From the NCBI GenBank assembly GCA_039179045.1, contig JBCDEZ010000019.1, positions 1 to 25,350 of the forward strand: 25,350 bases of DNA, written 5' to 3'. Each line of letters begins with the position of its first letter. The stretch's first letter is position 1. Shown in pieces: positions 1 through 25,350 of this stretch. The notes beneath the pieces were generated by a model that was not told the DNA's origin, searched no databases, and worked only from the letters and a program-made list of their open reading frames with translations. A program made the translations under genes and the position numbers. The stretch is from Chlamydiota bacterium. GTDB taxonomy: Bacteria; Chlamydiota; Chlamydiia; Chlamydiales; SM23-39.

Positions 1-65
1 AGATAAAGAGCCTCGCTTGTTTAGAGGCTTTTTATCAAGTTTTTTACTAGAGATTTTTTCAACAA
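1..65 (-). mobile_element. Copy of repeat family A (IS end or MITE), cut by the window edge
   Basis: The reverse complement of 7-65 (TTGTTGAAAAAATCTCTAGTAAAAAACTTGATAAAAAGCCTCTAAACAAGCGAGGCTCT) aligns with a few mismatches to the copies starting at 2382 and 25297. The 15-bp terminal repeat AGATTTTTTCAACAA lies at 51-65. Confidence 0.8.
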
Positions 66-68
66 GGC

Positions 69-470
69 CTACTTTTCCTCAAAGTCTCCAAACACTTGAA
101 TCATTTCACATTGATTTACCAATAAGTCATTGAGTTGGTAAAATTCGCCTTTATAGTTCTTAGTCTGTTTAAAATCGAGTCTTTTTTGATAGGAGTCATT
201 AGAGGTATAGGAGAGATTCTTTAGAAAGTTTATGAACATATCCTTTATATTATATCCAAAAACAATCTCTTTTATCTCGATATCGAAATCCGATGCGAAC
301 ACTTTCATGCTATCAATCATATTGTAGAGCGCCATGAAGTACCCCATCTTGTAGATAGCATCTTTCTCTCCATGGGATTGATCTTTATTGTTTTGCGCTT
401 GCTTGATTTTGCTCTTGAATTTAGCGACTAAATACCAAACGTAATGCTTGAACCTTTCCTCTGAAAACAT
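69..470 (-). CDS. Hypothetical 133-aa protein, third gene of the toxin cassette (possible orphan immunity protein)
   Basis: Its ATG (470-468) overlaps the TGA of the upstream gene (TGATG). The gene is AT-rich and helical-looking, with the motif YKMGYFMALYNMIDSMKVFASDFDI. The immunity role is inferred from position only. Confidence 0.6.
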   Translation of the reverse strand: MFSEERFKHYVWYLVAKFKSKIKQAQNNKDQSHGEKDAIYKMGYFMALYNMIDSMKVFASDFDIEIKEIVFGYNIKDMFINFLKNLSYTSNDSYQKRLDFKQTKNYKGEFYQLNDLLVNQCEMIQVFGDFEEK

Positions 471-688
471 CAATTGAGTAATTTTTCTTTGGCTTGCTTG
501 AGGATTTCAATGGCTTCATGGAAAGAAAACTCCCAGTATTTTTGCCTAGGATGTGGATAAAACTGAACGATGACTTCGTCTGTTTCTTGCGAAATTTCTA
601 CCCATTGGACGTTATCGTAAGCAATTTCTGCGACCGGGCGCTCTCTATCGGGAAGACTGGCTATAATTATTCTAAATTTTTCCATCAT
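470..688 (-). CDS. Putative cognate immunity protein, 72 aa
   Basis: Its ATG overlaps the toxin TAA (TAATG). It is small and charged, and IASLPDRERPVAEI...WVEISQE...QFYP...WEF resembles small proteins I recall downstream of polymorphic toxin tips. Confidence 0.7.
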   Translation of the reverse strand: MMEKFRIIIASLPDRERPVAEIAYDNVQWVEISQETDEVIVQFYPHPRQKYWEFSFHEAIEILKQAKEKLLN

Positions 689-2259
689 TATTTTTTAAAC
701 TCCAAAAATCCAATAAATTCACCTTCTAAACTATAACGAGCTCCACCAATATTTGGAGCATAAATATCGACCGTTTTTCCCATTCTACTGGAATCATAAA
801 GAATACATTCTCTTTTTGGGTGATTTAAAATCGATTCTAGCATTCTTTGTCCCTGTGCATTTATCTGGGCAGGATTGCCAACAGGCTTGGGGAATCCACT
901 TCCCTCTCTGTACCCATGCTTCATCAATCCCCTTCCTACTTTCGTAAAACCAGCTCTATCTATCGCATTTCCAGCCTTGATTAGATTGTTTGTATTGGAA
1001 AAAACTTTAGGGATCCCTCCTGGGAGAGGTATCATGCCAATAGCAAAATCATTCATGGGATCATTTGCCCTAGCTTCTGCTGTAAAAAACTCAGCTTGAT
1101 CTGTGGAGAAAACGTTATCGATTGCTTCGTGACCTTTAGCAACCAAGTTCTCATAATTTTCTATGGAGCTTAATTGCTCTCCGACAGCTGGCAACTTAAG
1201 ACTTTCTGGCAAGAACCTATCACCTAATTCTTTCACTTCTTCGCAGAGCTGAGGGACCACTTTTGCTAAATCGGTGATTGCATCCAAAGCTTCATGAGCA
1301 ACACCCGCTCCCACTTCTCTTGCTTTCTCCCCAAAGGACTTCTCATCCCATCCTTCGAATCCAGTTTCTTGCTGAGCGACCTTATCTTCAACGAGAAATT
1401 CTTTAAAAGAAGCAACATGTTCATCTAGGGCAGCCTTCATGACGGGAGCTTCACTTGTATCAACAGGAGGCAATGTTTCTTTTGGAGCTATAGAGGCAAG
1501 TGGAGACTTTTCCTTCGATTCTGATTTTTTTGATTCAGAATGGCCGGAATCTGAAGATCTTGTGCCAGCACCGGCTGCAGCTACAACAGCTACAACAACG
1601 ACTGTCGCTACTACGACCACTACAACCCCTATGATTATGGCTTTTTTGTGTTTCTTGCAAAAATTTTTGGTCTTCTTCCAAGCCTTGCTGATCTTCCCAC
1701 ACTGTATGATGTCGTAGCTAGAGTAACCATTGAGAACAGCTGGAATGATCACGTATTCATGGCTATTTTCCAGATAGCGCGTTAGCTGAAATGCACTGTC
1801 TTCTCCATACATCAGATCATACGTATCTTCTTCGAGCTCGCATTCTTTTTCAACCTCATTGGGGAGAATCCCCTCTTTTGCAAGAGTTGCTATGTAATCA
1901 TTTATTTTCTCCAACTGCATCGGCGAATATCTTCTCTCTAGCTCACCAGACTCCAAGTCCTCGAGCATCTGGATGATCTCATTGTATGTATTGGGGCGTA
2001 CCCATTGCTCTTTTTGCTCCTCGCTCCACCAGTCCCCTAACCAGTTCGCGGTTTGAGGACTTGGAAGAGACTGTTTCTGCCTCTGATTCACCACTTGAAA
2101 CGACACCTGTGATGCATTATTATGTTGAGGACAGGTTACAAGGGTTGGTGTGGTGGCTAGGATGGTACAGTGACTAAAAAGCTTCCATTTTCGCACACTC
2201 CCGGTACTCGATTCATTTGACAAACCACTTTGCGATTGAAGCGACAAGTTGTCAATCAA
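688..2259 (-). CDS. Putative polymorphic toxin, 523 aa, with one membrane segment and a C-terminal toxin-like domain
   Basis: Long ORF with an uncertain TTG start. A central CGKISKAWKKTKNFCKKHKK is followed by hydrophobic AIIIGVVVVVVATVVVVAVVAAAGAG. The last ~100 aa (TKVGRGLMKHGYREGSGFP...GNPAQINAQGQRMLESILNHP...GARYSLEGEFIGFLE) resemble tips found on Rhs/CdiA-type proteins. A small coupled gene follows. Confidence 0.7.
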   Translation of the reverse strand: MIDNLSLQSQSGLSNESSTGSVRKWKLFSHCTILATTPTLVTCPQHNNASQVSFQVVNQRQKQSLPSPQTANWLGDWWSEEQKEQWVRPNTYNEIIQMLEDLESGELERRYSPMQLEKINDYIATLAKEGILPNEVEKECELEEDTYDLMYGEDSAFQLTRYLENSHEYVIIPAVLNGYSSYDIIQCGKISKAWKKTKNFCKKHKKAIIIGVVVVVVATVVVVAVVAAAGAGTRSSDSGHSESKKSESKEKSPLASIAPKETLPPVDTSEAPVMKAALDEHVASFKEFLVEDKVAQQETGFEGWDEKSFGEKAREVGAGVAHEALDAITDLAKVVPQLCEEVKELGDRFLPESLKLPAVGEQLSSIENYENLVAKGHEAIDNVFSTDQAEFFTAEARANDPMNDFAIGMIPLPGGIPKVFSNTNNLIKAGNAIDRAGFTKVGRGLMKHGYREGSGFPKPVGNPAQINAQGQRMLESILNHPKRECILYDSSRMGKTVDIYAPNIGGARYSLEGEFIGFLEFKK

Positions 2260-2381
2260 CTATTTTAGTCCCTATTGAAAAAATCAGATTTTCAGAACAA
2301 CCAGGACTATCCTTGAAGATTTTCTAGCTCTCGGTTCTCATCATTTGATGCATCATCAGGCATTTTCAGCAACCTTCGGCG

Positions 2382-2456
2382 TTGTTGAAAAAATCTCTAG
2401 GAAAACCTTGATAAAAAGCCCATAAACAAGCGAGGCTCCTTAGATTTTTTCAACAA
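2382..2456 (+). mobile_element. 75-bp MITE-like element (repeat family A, complete copy)
   Basis: Perfect 15-bp terminal inverted repeats: TTGTTGAAAAAATCT (2382-2396) and AGATTTTTTCAACAA (2442-2456). Two further copies lie at the window ends. Confidence 0.85.
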
Positions 2457-2461
2457 GGCTA

Positions 2462-6965: not shown

Positions 6966-7826
6966 ATGATATCCCGCAATGATCCTTGCTGGTGTGGATC
7001 TCAGAAGAAGTGGAAAAAGTGCCATTATCCAGAAAAAGCACCCCAAACCAAAACCGAGTATTTCCAGGAAAAGTACCAGATCATCCTGAAAACAGAGGAG
7101 CAAATCGCAGGAATCAAGACTGCCTGCCAGTTTGCGAAAAGTGTCTTGGAAAAGCTGATCCTCGCAGCAAAAGAGGGAGTCACAACAAACGAGTTGGAGC
7201 TCCTTTGTAGAAAGTTGCATGATCAAGGGGGAGCAATCCCTGCTCCTTTGCATTACGGATCCCCTCCTTATCCGAAAAGCGCCTGCTTTTCTTTGAATGA
7301 GGTCATTTGCCATGGCATCGCAGATGAGCGCCCTTTATGTAGTGGGGATATCTTGAATATCGACATCACCTCGATTGTCGATGAGTACTATGGAGATCTT
7401 TCGAAGATGCTTTGCATCGGTTCGGTCAGCGAAGAAAAGCGTCTCGTTGTTGACTGCGCGCGCGCTTGTCTCCACCGAGCAATCCGGATTTTGAAGCCAG
7501 GCATTTTTCTTTTCGAAATCGGTGATGTGATTGAAGAAGAAGCCGCTAAGCGCGGGTGCTCTGTAGTAGACCAGTTTGTAGGCCATGGGATAGGACTTGC
7601 TTTTCACGAGCCTCCTCAAGTATGTCACCATAAGAATCGGATGAACATTCCTTTAGAAGAGGGAATGATTTTTACCATTGAGCCGATGGTCAACGCAGGA
7701 AAGAGGGAGGCTGTTATCGATCCAGTCGATCAGTGGACCGCGCGTACAATCGACGGGAAGCCCTCAGCTCAAGAAGAGCACACCGTACTGATTACAGAAA
7801 CAGGTTCAGATGTTCTCACTGCTTAG
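6966..7826 (+). CDS. map: Methionine aminopeptidase type I with an N-terminal SEC-C zinc motif
   Basis: RNDPCWCGSQKKWKKCH; NEVICHGI, DILNID, GHGIG..FHE, FTIEPM and EHT metal-ligand motifs. Confidence 0.97.
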   Translation: MISRNDPCWCGSQKKWKKCHYPEKAPQTKTEYFQEKYQIILKTEEQIAGIKTACQFAKSVLEKLILAAKEGVTTNELELLCRKLHDQGGAIPAPLHYGSPPYPKSACFSLNEVICHGIADERPLCSGDILNIDITSIVDEYYGDLSKMLCIGSVSEEKRLVVDCARACLHRAIRILKPGIFLFEIGDVIEEEAAKRGCSVVDQFVGHGIGLAFHEPPQVCHHKNRMNIPLEEGMIFTIEPMVNAGKREAVIDPVDQWTARTIDGKPSAQEEHTVLITETGSDVLTA

Positions 7827-8913
7827 CCTCAATCAAAGCTTGGTTGAGGTACGTGATTAAGGTAAAAAGTTCGTTTTCTTGCTGGCGCATCACCTCTAGC
7901 TCCTCACCCATTGCCGCTGCCTGCGCAACTAAATTCTCCGTTTCTTTCTCCGCATGATTCTTATCCGCCATTCTTTCTGTTTGCACATGGGTGATCTGCT
8001 CTTCTGCTTCGACAAGGCGCTCTTTTGCCTGCTCGAGAGCTACACTTTTTTGCGTCATCTGCTCTTTGAGCTGAAAGTACATCGGCTCAAATTTCTTCAA
8101 AGCGCTCGCATGCAAAAGGACGATCCTGAGATCTTCCGACTTTTCTGAGAATTTCTGGCGTAACTCATCGAGCTGCTTTTGTAGCGAATAGTGCATTGCG
8201 AAACTCTCTTTAGGATGCAGAGTAGTTTTTTTTAACTGCGCCGTTTCTAAAAGATCTTCCAACCTCTTTTTCTCGTCTTCAAAACGTTTCTGCTCTTCAT
8301 CAGAAGAGGCTTTCAAAGCGGCGATTGCCTGTTCTTTTTCCTCTAAGATTTTCTGTAGGGAGAAAAGATTTTCCAATTCTACTTTTCTCTCTTCCACCTG
8401 TAAATGCAATTTTTCTTGCATTTCTTCGTAGGTCTCTTGTAGAAAAATATAGCGCTTTTCTAGTTCAAGACATTCGGCTCTTTTACCGAGAAAATCTCTT
8501 TGCAAATTGGAGGAGATACTTTCCAAATCTCGGAGATGCTGCTCCCTTTTTTTCCCCTTTTCCAGGATAAGAAAAACTTGCATAAACAAGGCACGGATCT
8601 GGGAAGAACTCGCAGCAGCCATCCACAAACTCACTGAAACAGCCAAGTATACACCAATCTTTTCCACAGAAAAAGCTCCGGGAAGATAGTAGAAAAAAGG
8701 GAATAAAAAGAGATAAGCTACTAGAATGCACAACGTACTTTGTTTCGGGAAAAGAGCGGCACAAACTAAGGCTGTTGCTACGGAAAGAAGCATAGTTCCT
8801 CCAGAAGGGCCTTTCGTCAAGATCGGTGCGATACAACAAAGAAGAGTGGCTGCGAAAAAAAGGGGTAGGCAAGCATAGCGCCAGGACCGCTCCATATCTT
8901 CGAGATCATCCAT
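7816..8913 (-). CDS. Membrane protein with several N-terminal TM helices and a long coiled coil (Chlamydia CT850-like by synteny)
   Basis: Hydrophobic N-terminal third and an E/K/Q/L-rich C-terminus. GGAGGT precedes the ATG at 8913. It is convergent with map. Confidence 0.8.
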   Translation of the reverse strand: MDDLEDMERSWRYACLPLFFAATLLCCIAPILTKGPSGGTMLLSVATALVCAALFPKQSTLCILVAYLFLFPFFYYLPGAFSVEKIGVYLAVSVSLWMAAASSSQIRALFMQVFLILEKGKKREQHLRDLESISSNLQRDFLGKRAECLELEKRYIFLQETYEEMQEKLHLQVEERKVELENLFSLQKILEEKEQAIAALKASSDEEQKRFEDEKKRLEDLLETAQLKKTTLHPKESFAMHYSLQKQLDELRQKFSEKSEDLRIVLLHASALKKFEPMYFQLKEQMTQKSVALEQAKERLVEAEEQITHVQTERMADKNHAEKETENLVAQAAAMGEELEVMRQQENELFTLITYLNQALIEAKQ

Positions 8914-9129
8914 AGATACCTCCGTAAATTGTATCCTAGCAATTCCTCTCAAGAGAGAACAGGAGAAAATCTCTTCCCAAAGAAAATCTTGGTATGAGGG
9001 TCACGCGAATTGCAGGCAAAAAAGCGAAGAAAAGACTAGAGCGCGCTAAATTATAGTAAGCGTGCAAAACTTGTAGCCAAGAGAAAAAGTAGAAAAAACT
9101 CCGCGAAACGGACTTTTTAAAATTGTACT

Positions 9130-9375
9130 TCACTCGGGAAGAGGGGTTTCTTCTTCCCGAGAAGAGTTGAATACTTCTGCAGCGCTATCCAAAAGGTATG
9201 CAGCAAGCATTTCATCTCCCTCGTAAGACATTTCAACATCCATTCTTCCGTCTTTTACAGCATCTTTGCACGTGATCAAGACATAGCATGAGTGGTTGTT
9301 TCCCAGACTTTTTCTAATTTTCTGTATGGACCAATCCTTATGCTCCGTCTCTATTAGCTGTAACTTTTCTTTCAT
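9130..9375 (-). CDS. Small conserved chlamydial protein (CT849.1-like)
   Basis: CYVLITC...DGRMDVEMSYEGDEMLAAYLL motif recalled from chlamydial homologs. The start is probably 9375 or 9381 rather than 9507. Confidence 0.75.
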   Translation of the reverse strand: MKEKLQLIETEHKDWSIQKIRKSLGNNHSCYVLITCKDAVKDGRMDVEMSYEGDEMLAAYLLDSAAEVFNSSREEETPLPE

Positions 9376-9867
9376 GGACATTCCGATTAAACGTTGTTTG
9401 TAACAAAATCCTCTGCACTGCATCCGTATATTCAGTTTGTAGATCGCACACACCTCGATTAACATGCAACCTAAAACAATAACTACGAAAAATTTGCGCG
9501 GGATCATATAACAAAAAGGAGTATCTTGAATAGGGATTTCTTTCGTTTATTTTTTCATAGGAAAAATTCACTGGTATAGATCTATGTCGCAATCGGCAAA
9601 GCTACTTTCTTCCTGCCGATTGGAATCGATACCCACATTCCGCACCTCTTGTAGAGGGATTGTGGAATAGGGTTTTACTTAAGACTAGTTTCATGAAACC
9701 ATACACCCATCTTAGATGGCACTAGCGCAAAAATTCCTTTCTACCGATTTTACGAGAAGGATGCGAAAAAGGACAAAGTACGCCCTCCTCAGCTCTTCTT
9801 CGCACAAATAAGATGACTGGAAAAGCAGGCGATACAAGAGACGTCAGCGCATCGAGAAAAAATGCTA

Positions 9868-14881: not shown

Positions 14882-15592
14882 ATGTCTTTTTGTTTAATTC
14901 TCTCTACAGAACTTTCTAACCCTGCGAAATCTCTTTCTCTACATGCTTCTTCGAAAGATGAACTCTTGCAATTGATACCATCCTTGGGCGTACGCAAAGA
15001 TGATTATTTGGGAGGAAAGACCCTTTCCCCGCTGCGAAAGCTTCTCTGTTCACCCGACTGGTTCACCTCTCTTGTTCCCCTTTTCCCTTGCATTTCTCTA
15101 TCTGTTGCCTACAAGCTACAGGATCGATGTGCGCTGATGCGGTACCCCCTATTTTTCCTATCTGCCGCTACCGACTTCTGCCTACTCCCCCTTTTTGTCA
15201 AGGAGAGAATGAGCCTTTACATTCTCCGCACTTTGTATGTTTTTTACACTTATTTCGATTGGTATACCTTTTCTTTCGTACCAAGGCGGCTTTACTACGA
15301 TTTGACAGGCCGACTACCCGACAACGCAGAAAAAAATCATTTGGAAATCGTGCACAGGTTGCTGAGTAGCCGTTATCCTATTTCGATTTACTTCGTAGAA
15401 TTAGACGTTACAGAGAATGGTACTTACCATGCCTACTCACACACTTTCCTTGATACAGAAAACAAGCCTAAAACACTATCAGAGGAGGAGACAAAGGCGG
15501 ACTCCTTGAAGGCATTAGTGCAAAAGCATATAAGCAAAGCGGGCGAAATGGGAGAGAAATTTGTGTCTATCGAGCTGCGTCCTATGATCTAA
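14882..15592 (+). CDS. Hypothetical protein, 236 aa
   Basis: A long ATG ORF fills the gap between the IS5 remnant and ispE. It has a moderately hydrophobic middle and no motif I recognise. Confidence 0.6.
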   Translation: MSFCLILSTELSNPAKSLSLHASSKDELLQLIPSLGVRKDDYLGGKTLSPLRKLLCSPDWFTSLVPLFPCISLSVAYKLQDRCALMRYPLFFLSAATDFCLLPLFVKERMSLYILRTLYVFYTYFDWYTFSFVPRRLYYDLTGRLPDNAEKNHLEIVHRLLSSRYPISIYFVELDVTENGTYHAYSHTFLDTENKPKTLSEEETKADSLKALVQKHISKAGEMGEKFVSIELRPMI

Positions 15593-23632: not shown

Positions 23633-24451
23633 TCAATAAAGGGAGAACACCTTCCTAAGTTTTCTGCAAAAGGCACTCCACCCGAAGCGCGCAAGATGCA
23701 AACAGTGAGAAAAAGCGCGCTGCGCTCCCAATCTCTCTTTGATGATGGCGATCTTTTCTATCGTCTTTTCCAAGGCCTGGTCACTCAAAAAGAGTTCTTC
23801 ATCCCAATCGATGTACACTCTCCTGGAGAGGTACATCTTGAGGTCGGCTCTTCCAAGTAGCTCTACTAAACAAGCAAGAGCAAGATGGTGTCGTACATCC
23901 CGGAAAAATGTTGTATCGGGAAACAAACTACCTCTCGCAAAAATTACTCCATGTAAAGGGGGATCAATGATCCCTTTTTTCCAAGAGGCGAGCAACGACT
24001 CGCCAGAAACCACCTCAGGAAGCCCCTGATCTCTTACGAATGCTGCAGAGATGAAAAGATCGAAAGAGCCCTTTTGCAAAATATATAGGATCTCTTCCAT
24101 GGCACCAGGCCACAGGTAACGATTGCCCAGAGAAAAAATTTGCATATACTCCCCTTTTGCCCGTGCAAAAGCATCTCGCATCATGGCCGCTACAGATTCC
24201 CCTTGCCCATAACATTGCGTTACGAAAAGATCGGGTCGCTCTGCAAACAGGGAACGCTCTTGCTGCGAGAGCTTCGCGCCAACAAAGATGATCTCAAAGC
24301 TTTGACAGCTCTGCTCCAAAAGGCTTTTGCATGTGGGAACAAAAAGTCTCCGGGATTCATGGAGAAAAACGATACAGGAGAGTCGGATGATTTGATCTTC
24401 CATATCCTCATCGTAGGACAGCTCTCTTTTTTCCGCGCCTTTTTTCAACAA
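23633..24451 (-). CDS. Glycosyltransferase family 2-like protein with degenerate catalytic motifs
   Basis: LSCIV...TCKSLLEQSCQSFEIIFV...MMRDAFARAKGEYMQI follows the GT-A N-terminal pattern, but the DDGS and DxD motifs are missing. The start may be the ATG at 24403. Confidence 0.7.
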   Translation of the reverse strand: MLKKGAEKRELSYDEDMEDQIIRLSCIVFLHESRRLFVPTCKSLLEQSCQSFEIIFVGAKLSQQERSLFAERPDLFVTQCYGQGESVAAMMRDAFARAKGEYMQIFSLGNRYLWPGAMEEILYILQKGSFDLFISAAFVRDQGLPEVVSGESLLASWKKGIIDPPLHGVIFARGSLFPDTTFFRDVRHHLALACLVELLGRADLKMYLSRRVYIDWDEELFLSDQALEKTIEKIAIIKERLGAQRAFSHCLHLARFGWSAFCRKLRKVFSLY

Positions 24452-25289: not shown

Positions 25290-25350
25290 TTCGGGGTTGT
25301 TGAAAAAATCTCTAGGAAAACCTTGATAAAAAGCCCATAAACAAGCGAGG
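25289..25350 (+). mobile_element. Copy of repeat family A, cut by the window edge
   Basis: 61 of 62 nt are identical to 2374-2435. Confidence 0.88.

What the first reader, a model, noticed from the sequence alone, without database searches (positions are those of the whole stretch)
69..2259. Candidate chlamydial polymorphic toxin-immunity system with an unrecognised delivery module
Seen: three minus-strand genes (523, 72 and 133 aa) chained by 1-nt stop/start overlaps (TAATG at 688, TGATG at 470), with visibly AT-rich distal genes. Established: a large protein with a C-terminal toxin tip followed by a tiny coupled immunity gene is the polymorphic toxin layout (CdiA/CdiI, Rhs, MafB, LXG). Seen: the first ~420 aa show no Rhs/YD or FHA repeats, no VENN motif, and no PAAR, LXG or WXG motif that I can recognise. 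Inference: this may be an undescribed, Chlamydiae-specific toxin trafficking family. In an intracellular bacterium it could act against co-infecting bacteria or the host, while the immunity gene implies the producer itself is susceptible.
Basis: partly seen in the sequence, partly recalled or inferred. Interest (0 to 1): 0.85.

Follow-up and report, generated by a model that had tools for sequence, protein, structure and literature searches.

The report
Chlamydial toxin family with swappable tips
Many environmental chlamydiae carry a gene for a probably secreted protein whose constant, unclassified front half is joined to interchangeable toxin ends, each followed by its own antidote gene, which suggests these host-dependent bacteria poison their own relatives.

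Summary
The large gene (true start at 2196, 502 aa) has a signal-peptide-like N-terminus, an all-helical carrier and a C-terminal tip. The tip is a homolog of the Pseudomonas PABL017 CdiA tRNase (6D7Y; Z 13.3), with the catalytic His aligned to H448. The carrier occurs in 150 of 401 Chlamydiota genomes (110 strongly) and carries about 12 tip classes. The downstream gene family follows the tip class, and near-identical carriers bear unrelated tips. The 72-aa protein is predicted to cap the active site (ipSAE 0.81, best control 0.00). Gene 3 is an orphan relative of the partner gene of another tip class. The carrier matched no Pfam, NCBIfam or PDB family or fold, and is not CdiA, Rhs, LXG or MafB. 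A member lies on the plasmid of cultured Simkania negevensis. Best reading: a MafB-like, Sec-exported polymorphic toxin used against related chlamydiae. Toxicity, secretion route and target are untested. The flanking repeats are ends of an abundant insertion sequence.

The parts
688..2196 (-). Toxin gene, about 502 aa from the GTG at 2196 (open frame extends to 2259)
   Evidence: ORF; homologs align from residue 22; Simkania plasmid member starts with ATG at the same place
2128..2196 (-). Signal-peptide-like N-terminus (aa 22-44): basic start, hydrophobic stretch, no lipobox seen
   Evidence: Own heuristic scored 83 of 96 homolog N-termini as signal-like; no dedicated predictor was run; this copy is less hydrophobic than most
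1696..2007 (-). Carrier part N1 (aa 85-188): acidic helical region ending at a conserved Cys187
   Evidence: 22 D/E vs 7 K/R; Cys in 92 of 104 aligned rows; helices in model
1564..1695 (-). Lys-rich amphipathic helix (aa 189-206) plus strongly hydrophobic helix (aa 207-232)
   Evidence: 9 K/R and no D/E; Kyte-Doolittle peak 3.49; F200, H204, K205 in 98, 101, 103 of 104 rows; also shared with a second chlamydial family
1465..1563 (-). Low-complexity Ser/Lys/Glu/Pro linker (aa 233-265)
   Evidence: low pLDDT in model; variable in alignment
1015..1464 (-). Carrier part N2 (aa 266-415): helical bundle ending in a conserved IGxxPxP motif, the junction at which tips are exchanged; long members have TPR repeats in this region
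   Evidence: alignments; BLAST end points; TPR hits
691..1002 (-). Toxin tip (aa 420-523): BECR-fold nuclease, homolog of CdiA-CT PABL017; putative catalytic H448 at 916-918
   Evidence: HMM E 2.3e-5; Z 13.3, rmsd 2.0, 92 aligned; Foldseek E 2.1e-4; same tip on a chlamydial Rhs protein
470..688 (-). Cognate immunity protein, 72 aa
   Evidence: co-varies with tip; predicted complex 0.81 vs best control 0.00, touching tip residues 24-29 including H448
69..470 (-). Orphan immunity-type gene (133 aa): first ~70 aa belong to the partner family of tip class 4; last ~55 aa are private
   Evidence: 33% over 66 aa to L029 partner and 38% to the Simkania plasmid partner; third class-4 pair in L059; no class-4 tip in this 88% complete assembly; no full-length relative
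4..69 (-). End of an insertion sequence abutting the stop codon of gene 3; the element runs off the contig
   Evidence: dispersed repeat B, 38 copies; 18-nt terminal repeat, 92 matches in the genome, next to transposase-like fragments
2268..2460 (+). Remnant of the same insertion sequence (three terminal-repeat copies) upstream of the toxin gene

Best explanation
A stand-alone polymorphic toxin-immunity cassette of environmental chlamydiae, working like MafB but with an unrelated carrier. Shown by computation: constant N-terminal carrier, exchangeable nuclease-type tips, tip-matched downstream genes, orphan tip/immunity cassettes, a tip with the PABL017 tRNase fold and catalytic His, and a predicted immunity complex over that His. 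Inferred: the protein leaves the cytoplasm through Sec (leaving the immunity protein behind), crosses the outer membrane by the type II secretion system or vesicles, and travels as a soluble helical bundle that hides its hydrophobic helix. At a related chlamydia sharing the same host cell or vacuole, the basic and hydrophobic helices engage the membrane, the tip is released near the IGxxPxP junction and cuts tRNA. Cells with the matching immunity gene survive. Approximate odds by step: polymorphic toxin system 0.93, tip is a tRNase 0.8, Sec export 0.75, main target is related bacteria 0.7.
For: About 12 tip classes on one carrier among 229 proteins, with LHH/colicin-DNase-like, DUF4258 and BECR hits. 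Starred sister pairs with unrelated tips in the N1 tree. Seven downstream families in 44 pairs, each tied to one tip class. In 20 class-0 loci, immunity identity tracks the tip's C-half (Mantel rho 0.80), not the carrier (0.00). Complex 0.81 vs best control 0.00; the mark was reached by 116 of 157 solved and 2 of 215 mismatched pairs; runs agree in at least 87% of contacts, partner pLDDT at least 89. Same tip plus three same-family immunity genes on a chlamydial Rhs protein. Signal-like N-termini; gspD/E/F in this genome. Carrier model pTM 0.78 as one unit.
Against: No toxicity, secretion or expression data. The signal peptide rests on my own heuristic and this copy's is weak. No conserved neighbour gene that could act as receptor, chaperone or MafA equivalent. 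Type II secretion is general in chlamydiae (recalled), so its presence is not specific. Burial of the hydrophobic helix is inferred from pTM and an aligned range, not from coordinates. Gene 3 carries a private extension and its L004 counterpart is split, so it may be decaying debris rather than selected protection. Loci are related and partly duplicated, so the co-variation statistics overstate independence.
Confidence: 0.62

Rival explanations
1. Same toxin-immunity system, but tethered: the hydrophobic helix (aa 207-232) is a true membrane anchor, the conserved Cys links it into the envelope, and the tip is displayed and delivered only on contact between cells in a shared vacuole.
For: Hydropathy peak 3.49 preceded by a Lys-rich helix, as in membrane anchors; Cys187 in 92 of 104 rows; Zhang et al. 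propose anchoring roles for lineage-specific N-terminal domains (PMC3482391 section 37).
Against: The model folds N1, the hydrophobic helix and N2 as one confident unit (pTM 0.78), which a membrane-spanning topology would split; no stalk or repeats to reach out; no lipobox seen.
Confidence: 0.2
2. Host-directed effector: a secreted or Inc-like protein that delivers nucleases into the eukaryotic host, with the small gene serving only as self-protection during synthesis.
For: Obligate intracellular lifestyle (established); long hydrophobic segment reminiscent of inclusion membrane proteins; tRNA exists in hosts; host-cell toxicity of the PABL017 tip is recalled from Allen et al. 2020, which I could not read.
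Against: The immunity-binding half of the tip diversifies in step with the immunity gene while the catalytic half is conserved (0.43 vs 0.67 mean identity), and orphan immunity genes accumulate: both are expected from conflict among kin, not from host targeting. Inc model hit is insignificant (E 0.43). Host-directed effectors of endosymbionts generally lack immunity genes (PMC3482391 section 46).
Confidence: 0.12
3. Selfish addiction module: a cytoplasmic toxin-antitoxin pair spread by insertion sequences and plasmids.
For: Cassettes sit at unrelated sites, often beside transposases; members lie on two chlamydial plasmids; insertion-sequence ends flank this copy.
Against: A conserved 400-aa carrier with signal-like start is not needed for addiction; tips are those of CdiA and Rhs; the insertion-sequence ends occur about 90 times in 1.3 Mb, so flanking is unremarkable.
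Confidence: 0.05

Closest known systems
MafB/MafI of Neisseria and the 'lineage-specific N-terminal domain after a signal peptide' class (MafB-N, Microscilla-N, APD1/2; PMC3482391 section 37)
   Same: Signal peptide, conserved lineage-restricted N-terminal domain, variable C-terminal toxin, adjacent immunity gene, orphan cassettes, similar size.
   Different: No MafB Pfam hit (Atlas feature score 0.83 is a lead only); no conserved upstream mafA-like gene; internal basic-plus-hydrophobic helix; optional TPR insert; spread over many genera of an intracellular phylum.
CdiA-CT/CdiI of Pseudomonas aeruginosa PABL017 (PDB 6D7Y), BECR-fold tRNase
   Same: Tip fold (Z 13.3, rmsd 2.0, 92 residues) and the Lys-His motif; H448 aligns with chain position 25, which is His3372 by the numbering.
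   Different: 23% identity; no TPS domain, FHA repeats or CdiB; the immunity family has no sequence match to 6D7Y chain B and is half its size.
Rhs/YD-repeat toxins
   Same: The same tip and immunity family occur on a chlamydial Rhs protein.
   Different: No RHS repeats; carrier profile vs that Rhs protein gives E 0.22.
Colicin D and other colicin-type nucleases
   Same: Tip fold related (Z 7.0-7.6); gene order toxin then immunity; plasmid-borne members.
   Different: Signal-like N-terminus, no lysis gene or colicin receptor/translocation domain found, tips exchanged among unrelated folds.

Membership tests
Polymorphic toxin systems (Zhang et al. 2012) | Conserved N-terminal region with variable C-terminal toxin domains | tested here: met
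   20 tip clusters in 229 proteins, about 12 judged real classes; tip swaps on near-identical N1
Polymorphic toxin systems (Zhang et al. 2012) | Adjacent immunity gene that changes with the toxin | tested here: met
   predicted complex
Polymorphic toxin systems (Zhang et al. 2012) | Orphan toxin/immunity cassettes downstream | tested here: met
   L007, L008, L014, L015, L017, L058, L059 and gene 3 here
Polymorphic toxin systems (Zhang et al. 2012) | Toxin is exported, inhibits other cells and is neutralised by the immunity protein | not testable with these tools
   needs experiments
PABL017-type BECR tRNase | BECR fold and catalytic His3372 equivalent | tested here: met
   His invariant in 14 of 14 tips; His3372 and tRNA-Gln/Pro preference from passages of PMC9086364
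PABL017-type BECR tRNase | Cleaves tRNA | not testable with these tools
   needs in vitro assay
CdiA (contact-dependent inhibition) | TPS domain, FHA repeats, VENN-type pre-toxin domain, cdiB neighbour | tested here: not met
   no such Pfam hits; 502 aa; no conserved upstream gene
Rhs toxins | RHS/YD repeats and core | tested here: not met
   no longer forms of 917-2615 aa found, weak evidence
MafB | N-terminal signal peptide | tested here: inconclusive
   signal-like in 83 of 96 by own heuristic; no dedicated predictor
MafB | MafB-N/DUF1020 domain and upstream mafA | tested here: not met
   no PF06255 hit in any of 13 carrier sequences or the full protein; no conserved upstream gene. Genome search was uninformative (no control rang)
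LXG/WXG (type VII) or PAAR/VgrG (type VI) effectors | LXG, WXG100 or PAAR domain; cognate secretion system | tested here: not met
   no Pfam hit; no VipB in the 88% complete genome
Amoebophilus APD1/APD2 and Microscilla-N | Sequence similarity to those prodomains; lipobox after the signal peptide | not testable with these tools
   no models or sequences at hand; the paper's Additional File was held as 1,214 characters only; no lipobox seen by eye
Any solved fold (carrier) | Structural match over most of the domain | tested here: inconclusive
   best Z 9.2, rmsd 3.4, 126 of 346 residues to a Cse1 helical bundle, below the level trusted for helical bundles; Foldseek none at E<=0.001
Chlamydial inclusion membrane (Inc) proteins | Bilobed hydrophobic domain, type III secretion | tested here: inconclusive
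   one hydrophobic peak; Inc model E 0.43; secretion route untested

The most novel reading that the evidence does not exclude
A phylum-specific toxin delivery module with a new fold, by which obligate intracellular chlamydiae wage kin-discriminating warfare inside shared host cells. Its basic-plus-hydrophobic helix is a membrane-entry device reused by a second chlamydial family with hydrolase-like tips and lipoprotein-like partners, and it diversifies at two levels: whole tips, and half-tips stored as immunity-half-tip fusion genes.
Probability: 0.4. Interest if true: 0.85.

Novelty: new variant of a known kind. Interest (0 to 1): 0.72.

Why it matters
Zhang et al. [quoted passage not shown] This family shows balanced, fast-swapping toxin-immunity pairs in over a quarter of sampled Chlamydiota genomes. 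It makes competition and superinfection exclusion among intracellular bacteria directly testable, with a member on the conjugative plasmid of the cultured Simkania negevensis Z. It also offers an unclassified carrier fold for crossing bacterial envelopes and several uncharacterised toxin and immunity families.

Tried and rejected
Flanking ~65-bp inverted repeats as ends of a dedicated mobile cassette: rejected, they are two of 92 terminal-repeat matches of a degraded insertion sequence (the IS5/IS903-like label is recalled, not tested). Pfam, NCBIfam and PADLOC gave no credible family for the three proteins. Single-sequence PDB searches found nothing; the carrier profile found nothing significant; no fold match for the carrier in PDB or BFVD, which does not prove a new fold. 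No longer fused forms (weak). No carrier in 50,697 phage records; the one IMG/VR hit is a chance motif. No conserved upstream partner. A carrier stub lies just downstream of the gsp operon on C23, but no other inspected locus showed that neighbourhood. Promoter/terminator counts were near chance. The RNA-library contigs (X6) show presence, not expression, and small-share runs were not used for habitat. Tip classes 1, 3, 4, 8, 9, 10, 14, 17 got no Pfam or NCBIfam name where scanned; class 1 has only a weak hit to PDB 8OWU_B (E 0.008). Literature: ten searches found no description of this family; subscription papers and the Additional File of PMC3482391 could not be seen and may list members. 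Earlier scan notes held nothing on it.

Full report
Observation. The three minus-strand ORFs and their 1-nt overlaps are real, and GC declines from carrier (0.444) to tip (0.381), 72-aa gene (0.393) and gene 3 (0.341). The window is contig C19 of an 88% complete, 1.32-Mb genome. Homologs start at residue 22, so the protein is about 502 aa. All parts compared with L004 are under purifying selection. Contigs of two other studies bridge the gene junctions.

The N-terminal region defines a family. A search with residues 75-420 gave 125 proteins; of the 120 listed, 13 carry an organism name and all 13 are chlamydial. A carrier-only profile (13 sequences) found 689 representatives at 50% clustering, of which I saw the best 150. 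It matched 150 of 401 Chlamydiota genomes; by my count from the table 110 have E<=1e-20 and 40 are weaker. The spread is patchy: 42/68, 26/35 and 53/90 in three families, 0/23, 0/30 and 1/46 in three others. Of 18 loci from GTDB, 10 are labelled chlamydial, 7 unnamed (3 of these recur in the phylum search) and 1 is labelled Verrucomicrobiae. No genome-wide search outside the phylum was run, so restriction to Chlamydiota is likely, not proven.

The tips are polymorphic. Of 252 proteins, 229 had a tip of 40 aa or more; these formed 20 clusters. I judge 12 to be real classes and 8 to be truncated ends. The largest are ours (98), class 1 (38), an LHH/colicin-DNase-like class (29; E 1e-4 to 6e-3, below cut-off), class 3 (21), class 4 (14) and two DUF4258-like classes (8 and 4). 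A quick, poorly resolved tree of the N1 region (197 rows, 117 columns) needs 85 label changes (minimum 11, shuffled mean 102) and has well-supported sister pairs with unrelated tips, such as P0118/P0116, P0202/P0190 and P0088/P0094. Long members have TPR repeats between carrier and tip.

The downstream gene follows the tip. In 44 pairs (36 non-identical; some genomes were reached twice) the downstream genes form 7 families: 31 with class 0 (one of these, L033, has a toxin frame that stops before the tip), 5 with class 1, 4 with class 2, and one each with classes 4, 6, 10 and a new tip; 5 carrier hits had no partner called (a contig end, a frameshifted orphan seen twice, an opposite-strand artefact seen twice). 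Within class 0 (20 loci), immunity identity tracks the tip's C-half (Mantel rho 0.80), weakly its N-half (0.30), and not the carrier (0.00); kinship inflates such tests. Orphan tip/immunity cassettes follow several loci. In six loci (L014, L015, L031, L033, L037, L038) an immunity gene is fused to the C-half of a tip, which looks like a store of half-tips (inference).

The tip is a known kind of toxin. Its profile hits only PDB 6D7Y_A (E 2.3e-5). Its model (pLDDT 89) matches 6D7Y_A at Z 13.3, rmsd 2.0, 92 residues, then colicin D at Z 7.0-7.6 (Foldseek E 2.1e-4). Passages of PMC9086364 describe that protein as the PABL017 CdiA tRNase with catalytic His3372, preferring tRNA-Gln and tRNA-Pro. 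H448 aligns to chain position 25, which is His3372 given that position 96 is residue 3443, and is invariant in 14 of 14 tips. The Atlas places the same domain (PF31217) on DUF637/haemagglutinin and, below its naming bar, Rhs proteins; a chlamydial Rhs protein carries it with three tandem genes of the same immunity family. The predicted tip-72-aa complex scores 0.81 against a best control of 0.00; that mark was reached by 116 of 157 solved and 2 of 215 mismatched pairs; runs agree in at least 87% of contacts, partner pLDDT at least 89. Contacts cover tip residues 24-29 (including H448) and the variable strands 67-74 and 97-104. The immunity profile has no match to the 6D7Y partner, so the pass is not obviously recalled from that structure; it supports binding but does not show it.

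Gene 3 is an orphan. Its first ~70 aa resemble the genes behind class-4 tips (33% and 38% over 66 aa; third pair). No class-4 tip is in this assembly, which is incomplete and broken at this very end. Its last ~55 aa have no relative, its stop abuts an insertion-sequence end, and the L004 counterpart is split. It is either retained protection or decaying debris.

The carrier. Anatomy: signal-like start (83 of 96 homologs by my heuristic), acidic helical N1, conserved Cys187 (92 of 104), a Lys-rich helix, a 26-residue hydrophobic helix, a linker, and helical N2 ending in IGxxPxP. The model is all-helical and confident as one unit (pLDDT 83, pTM 0.78). It matches no Pfam, NCBIfam or PDB family and no fold beyond a partial helical bundle (Z 9.2, rmsd 3.4, 126 residues). 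The Atlas lists MafB (0.83) and PT-TG (0.77) clusters, scores that shuffled proteins often reach. No upstream gene recurs apart from one unrelated pair. The genome has gspD/E/F and no VipB. A second chlamydial family shares only the basic-plus-hydrophobic segment (hhalign 96.8%, 49 columns of biased composition), followed by a domain with an HSQG motif and a lipoprotein-like neighbour; the hydrolase reading is recalled and had no family hit.

Mechanism. Most likely: Sec export, release by type II secretion or vesicles, membrane engagement through the basic and hydrophobic helices, release of the tip and tRNA cleavage in a related chlamydia lacking the matching immunity gene. Domain layout, swapping, pairing and tip fold are shown by computation; export route, processing, entry and target are inferred. 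Rivals are a membrane-tethered contact version, a host-directed effector and an addiction module.

Context. This genome holds further members and remnants: a TPR form with class-1 tip and partner (C12), a transposase-interrupted class-0 member with the other immunity subtype (C73), a carrier start at a contig end (C7), a stub (C23) and immunity or tip fragments (C8, C23, C24, C64). The Simkania negevensis Z plasmid pSn encodes a TPR-form, class-4 member across the record origin, absent from the PLSDB gene table, followed by WP_013935110.1; another member is on a Ca. Algichlamydia plasmid.

Comparison and novelty. It belongs to the polymorphic toxin systems and works like the class with a lineage-specific domain behind a signal peptide. 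In PMC3482391 I saw the abstract, sections 37, 45 and 46 and passages: they name MafB-N, Microscilla-N and APD1/2, list chlamydiae for several toxin domains, expect more such domains, and describe no chlamydial carrier; its Additional File was not readable. PMC9424270 passages had no mention of chlamydiae. PMC6520448 and the other listings were seen as search listings only. Ten searches found no description of this family. Verdict: new variant of a known kind; interest 0.72.

Noticed in passing
genome-wide; window 4-69, 2268-2460, 25293-25350: A degraded insertion sequence with an 18-nt terminal repeat (92 matches) sits at most contig ends; its transposase fragments are frameshifted.
   Followed up: partly
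L014, L015, L031, L033, L037, L038: Genes in which an immunity domain is fused to the C-terminal half of a toxin tip lacking the catalytic helix, in L014 and L015 followed by another immunity gene; possibly a reservoir for half-tip exchange.
   Followed up: partly
L062 580-2654 (+); L063 435-2674 (-): Second chlamydial family sharing only the basic-plus-hydrophobic helix, with a Pro-rich linker, an HSQG-motif domain and an overlapping lipoprotein-like gene; resembles a lipase effector with periplasmic immunity (recalled pattern).
   Followed up: partly
NC_015710.1 origin (L049 1-615, L050 8222-10039): A full family member on Simkania plasmid pSn spans the record origin and is missing from the PLSDB gene table.
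   Followed up: yes
G000:C23 8154-14600 (L052): A truncated copy of the toxin's N-terminus, cut by an insertion-sequence end, lies directly downstream of the gspD-E-F-pseudopilin operon.
   Followed up: partly
L051 1-4432: Chlamydial Rhs protein with the same tip followed by three tandem immunity genes of the same family.
   Followed up: yes
G000:C9 6554-11270 (-): A 1572-aa open frame with an RHS repeat hit that ends shortly after the core with no recognisable toxin tip.
   Followed up: no
window 7816-8952, 9130-9507, 14882-15592, 23633-24451: Four ORFs of 125-378 aa without a significant Pfam match among housekeeping genes.
   Followed up: no
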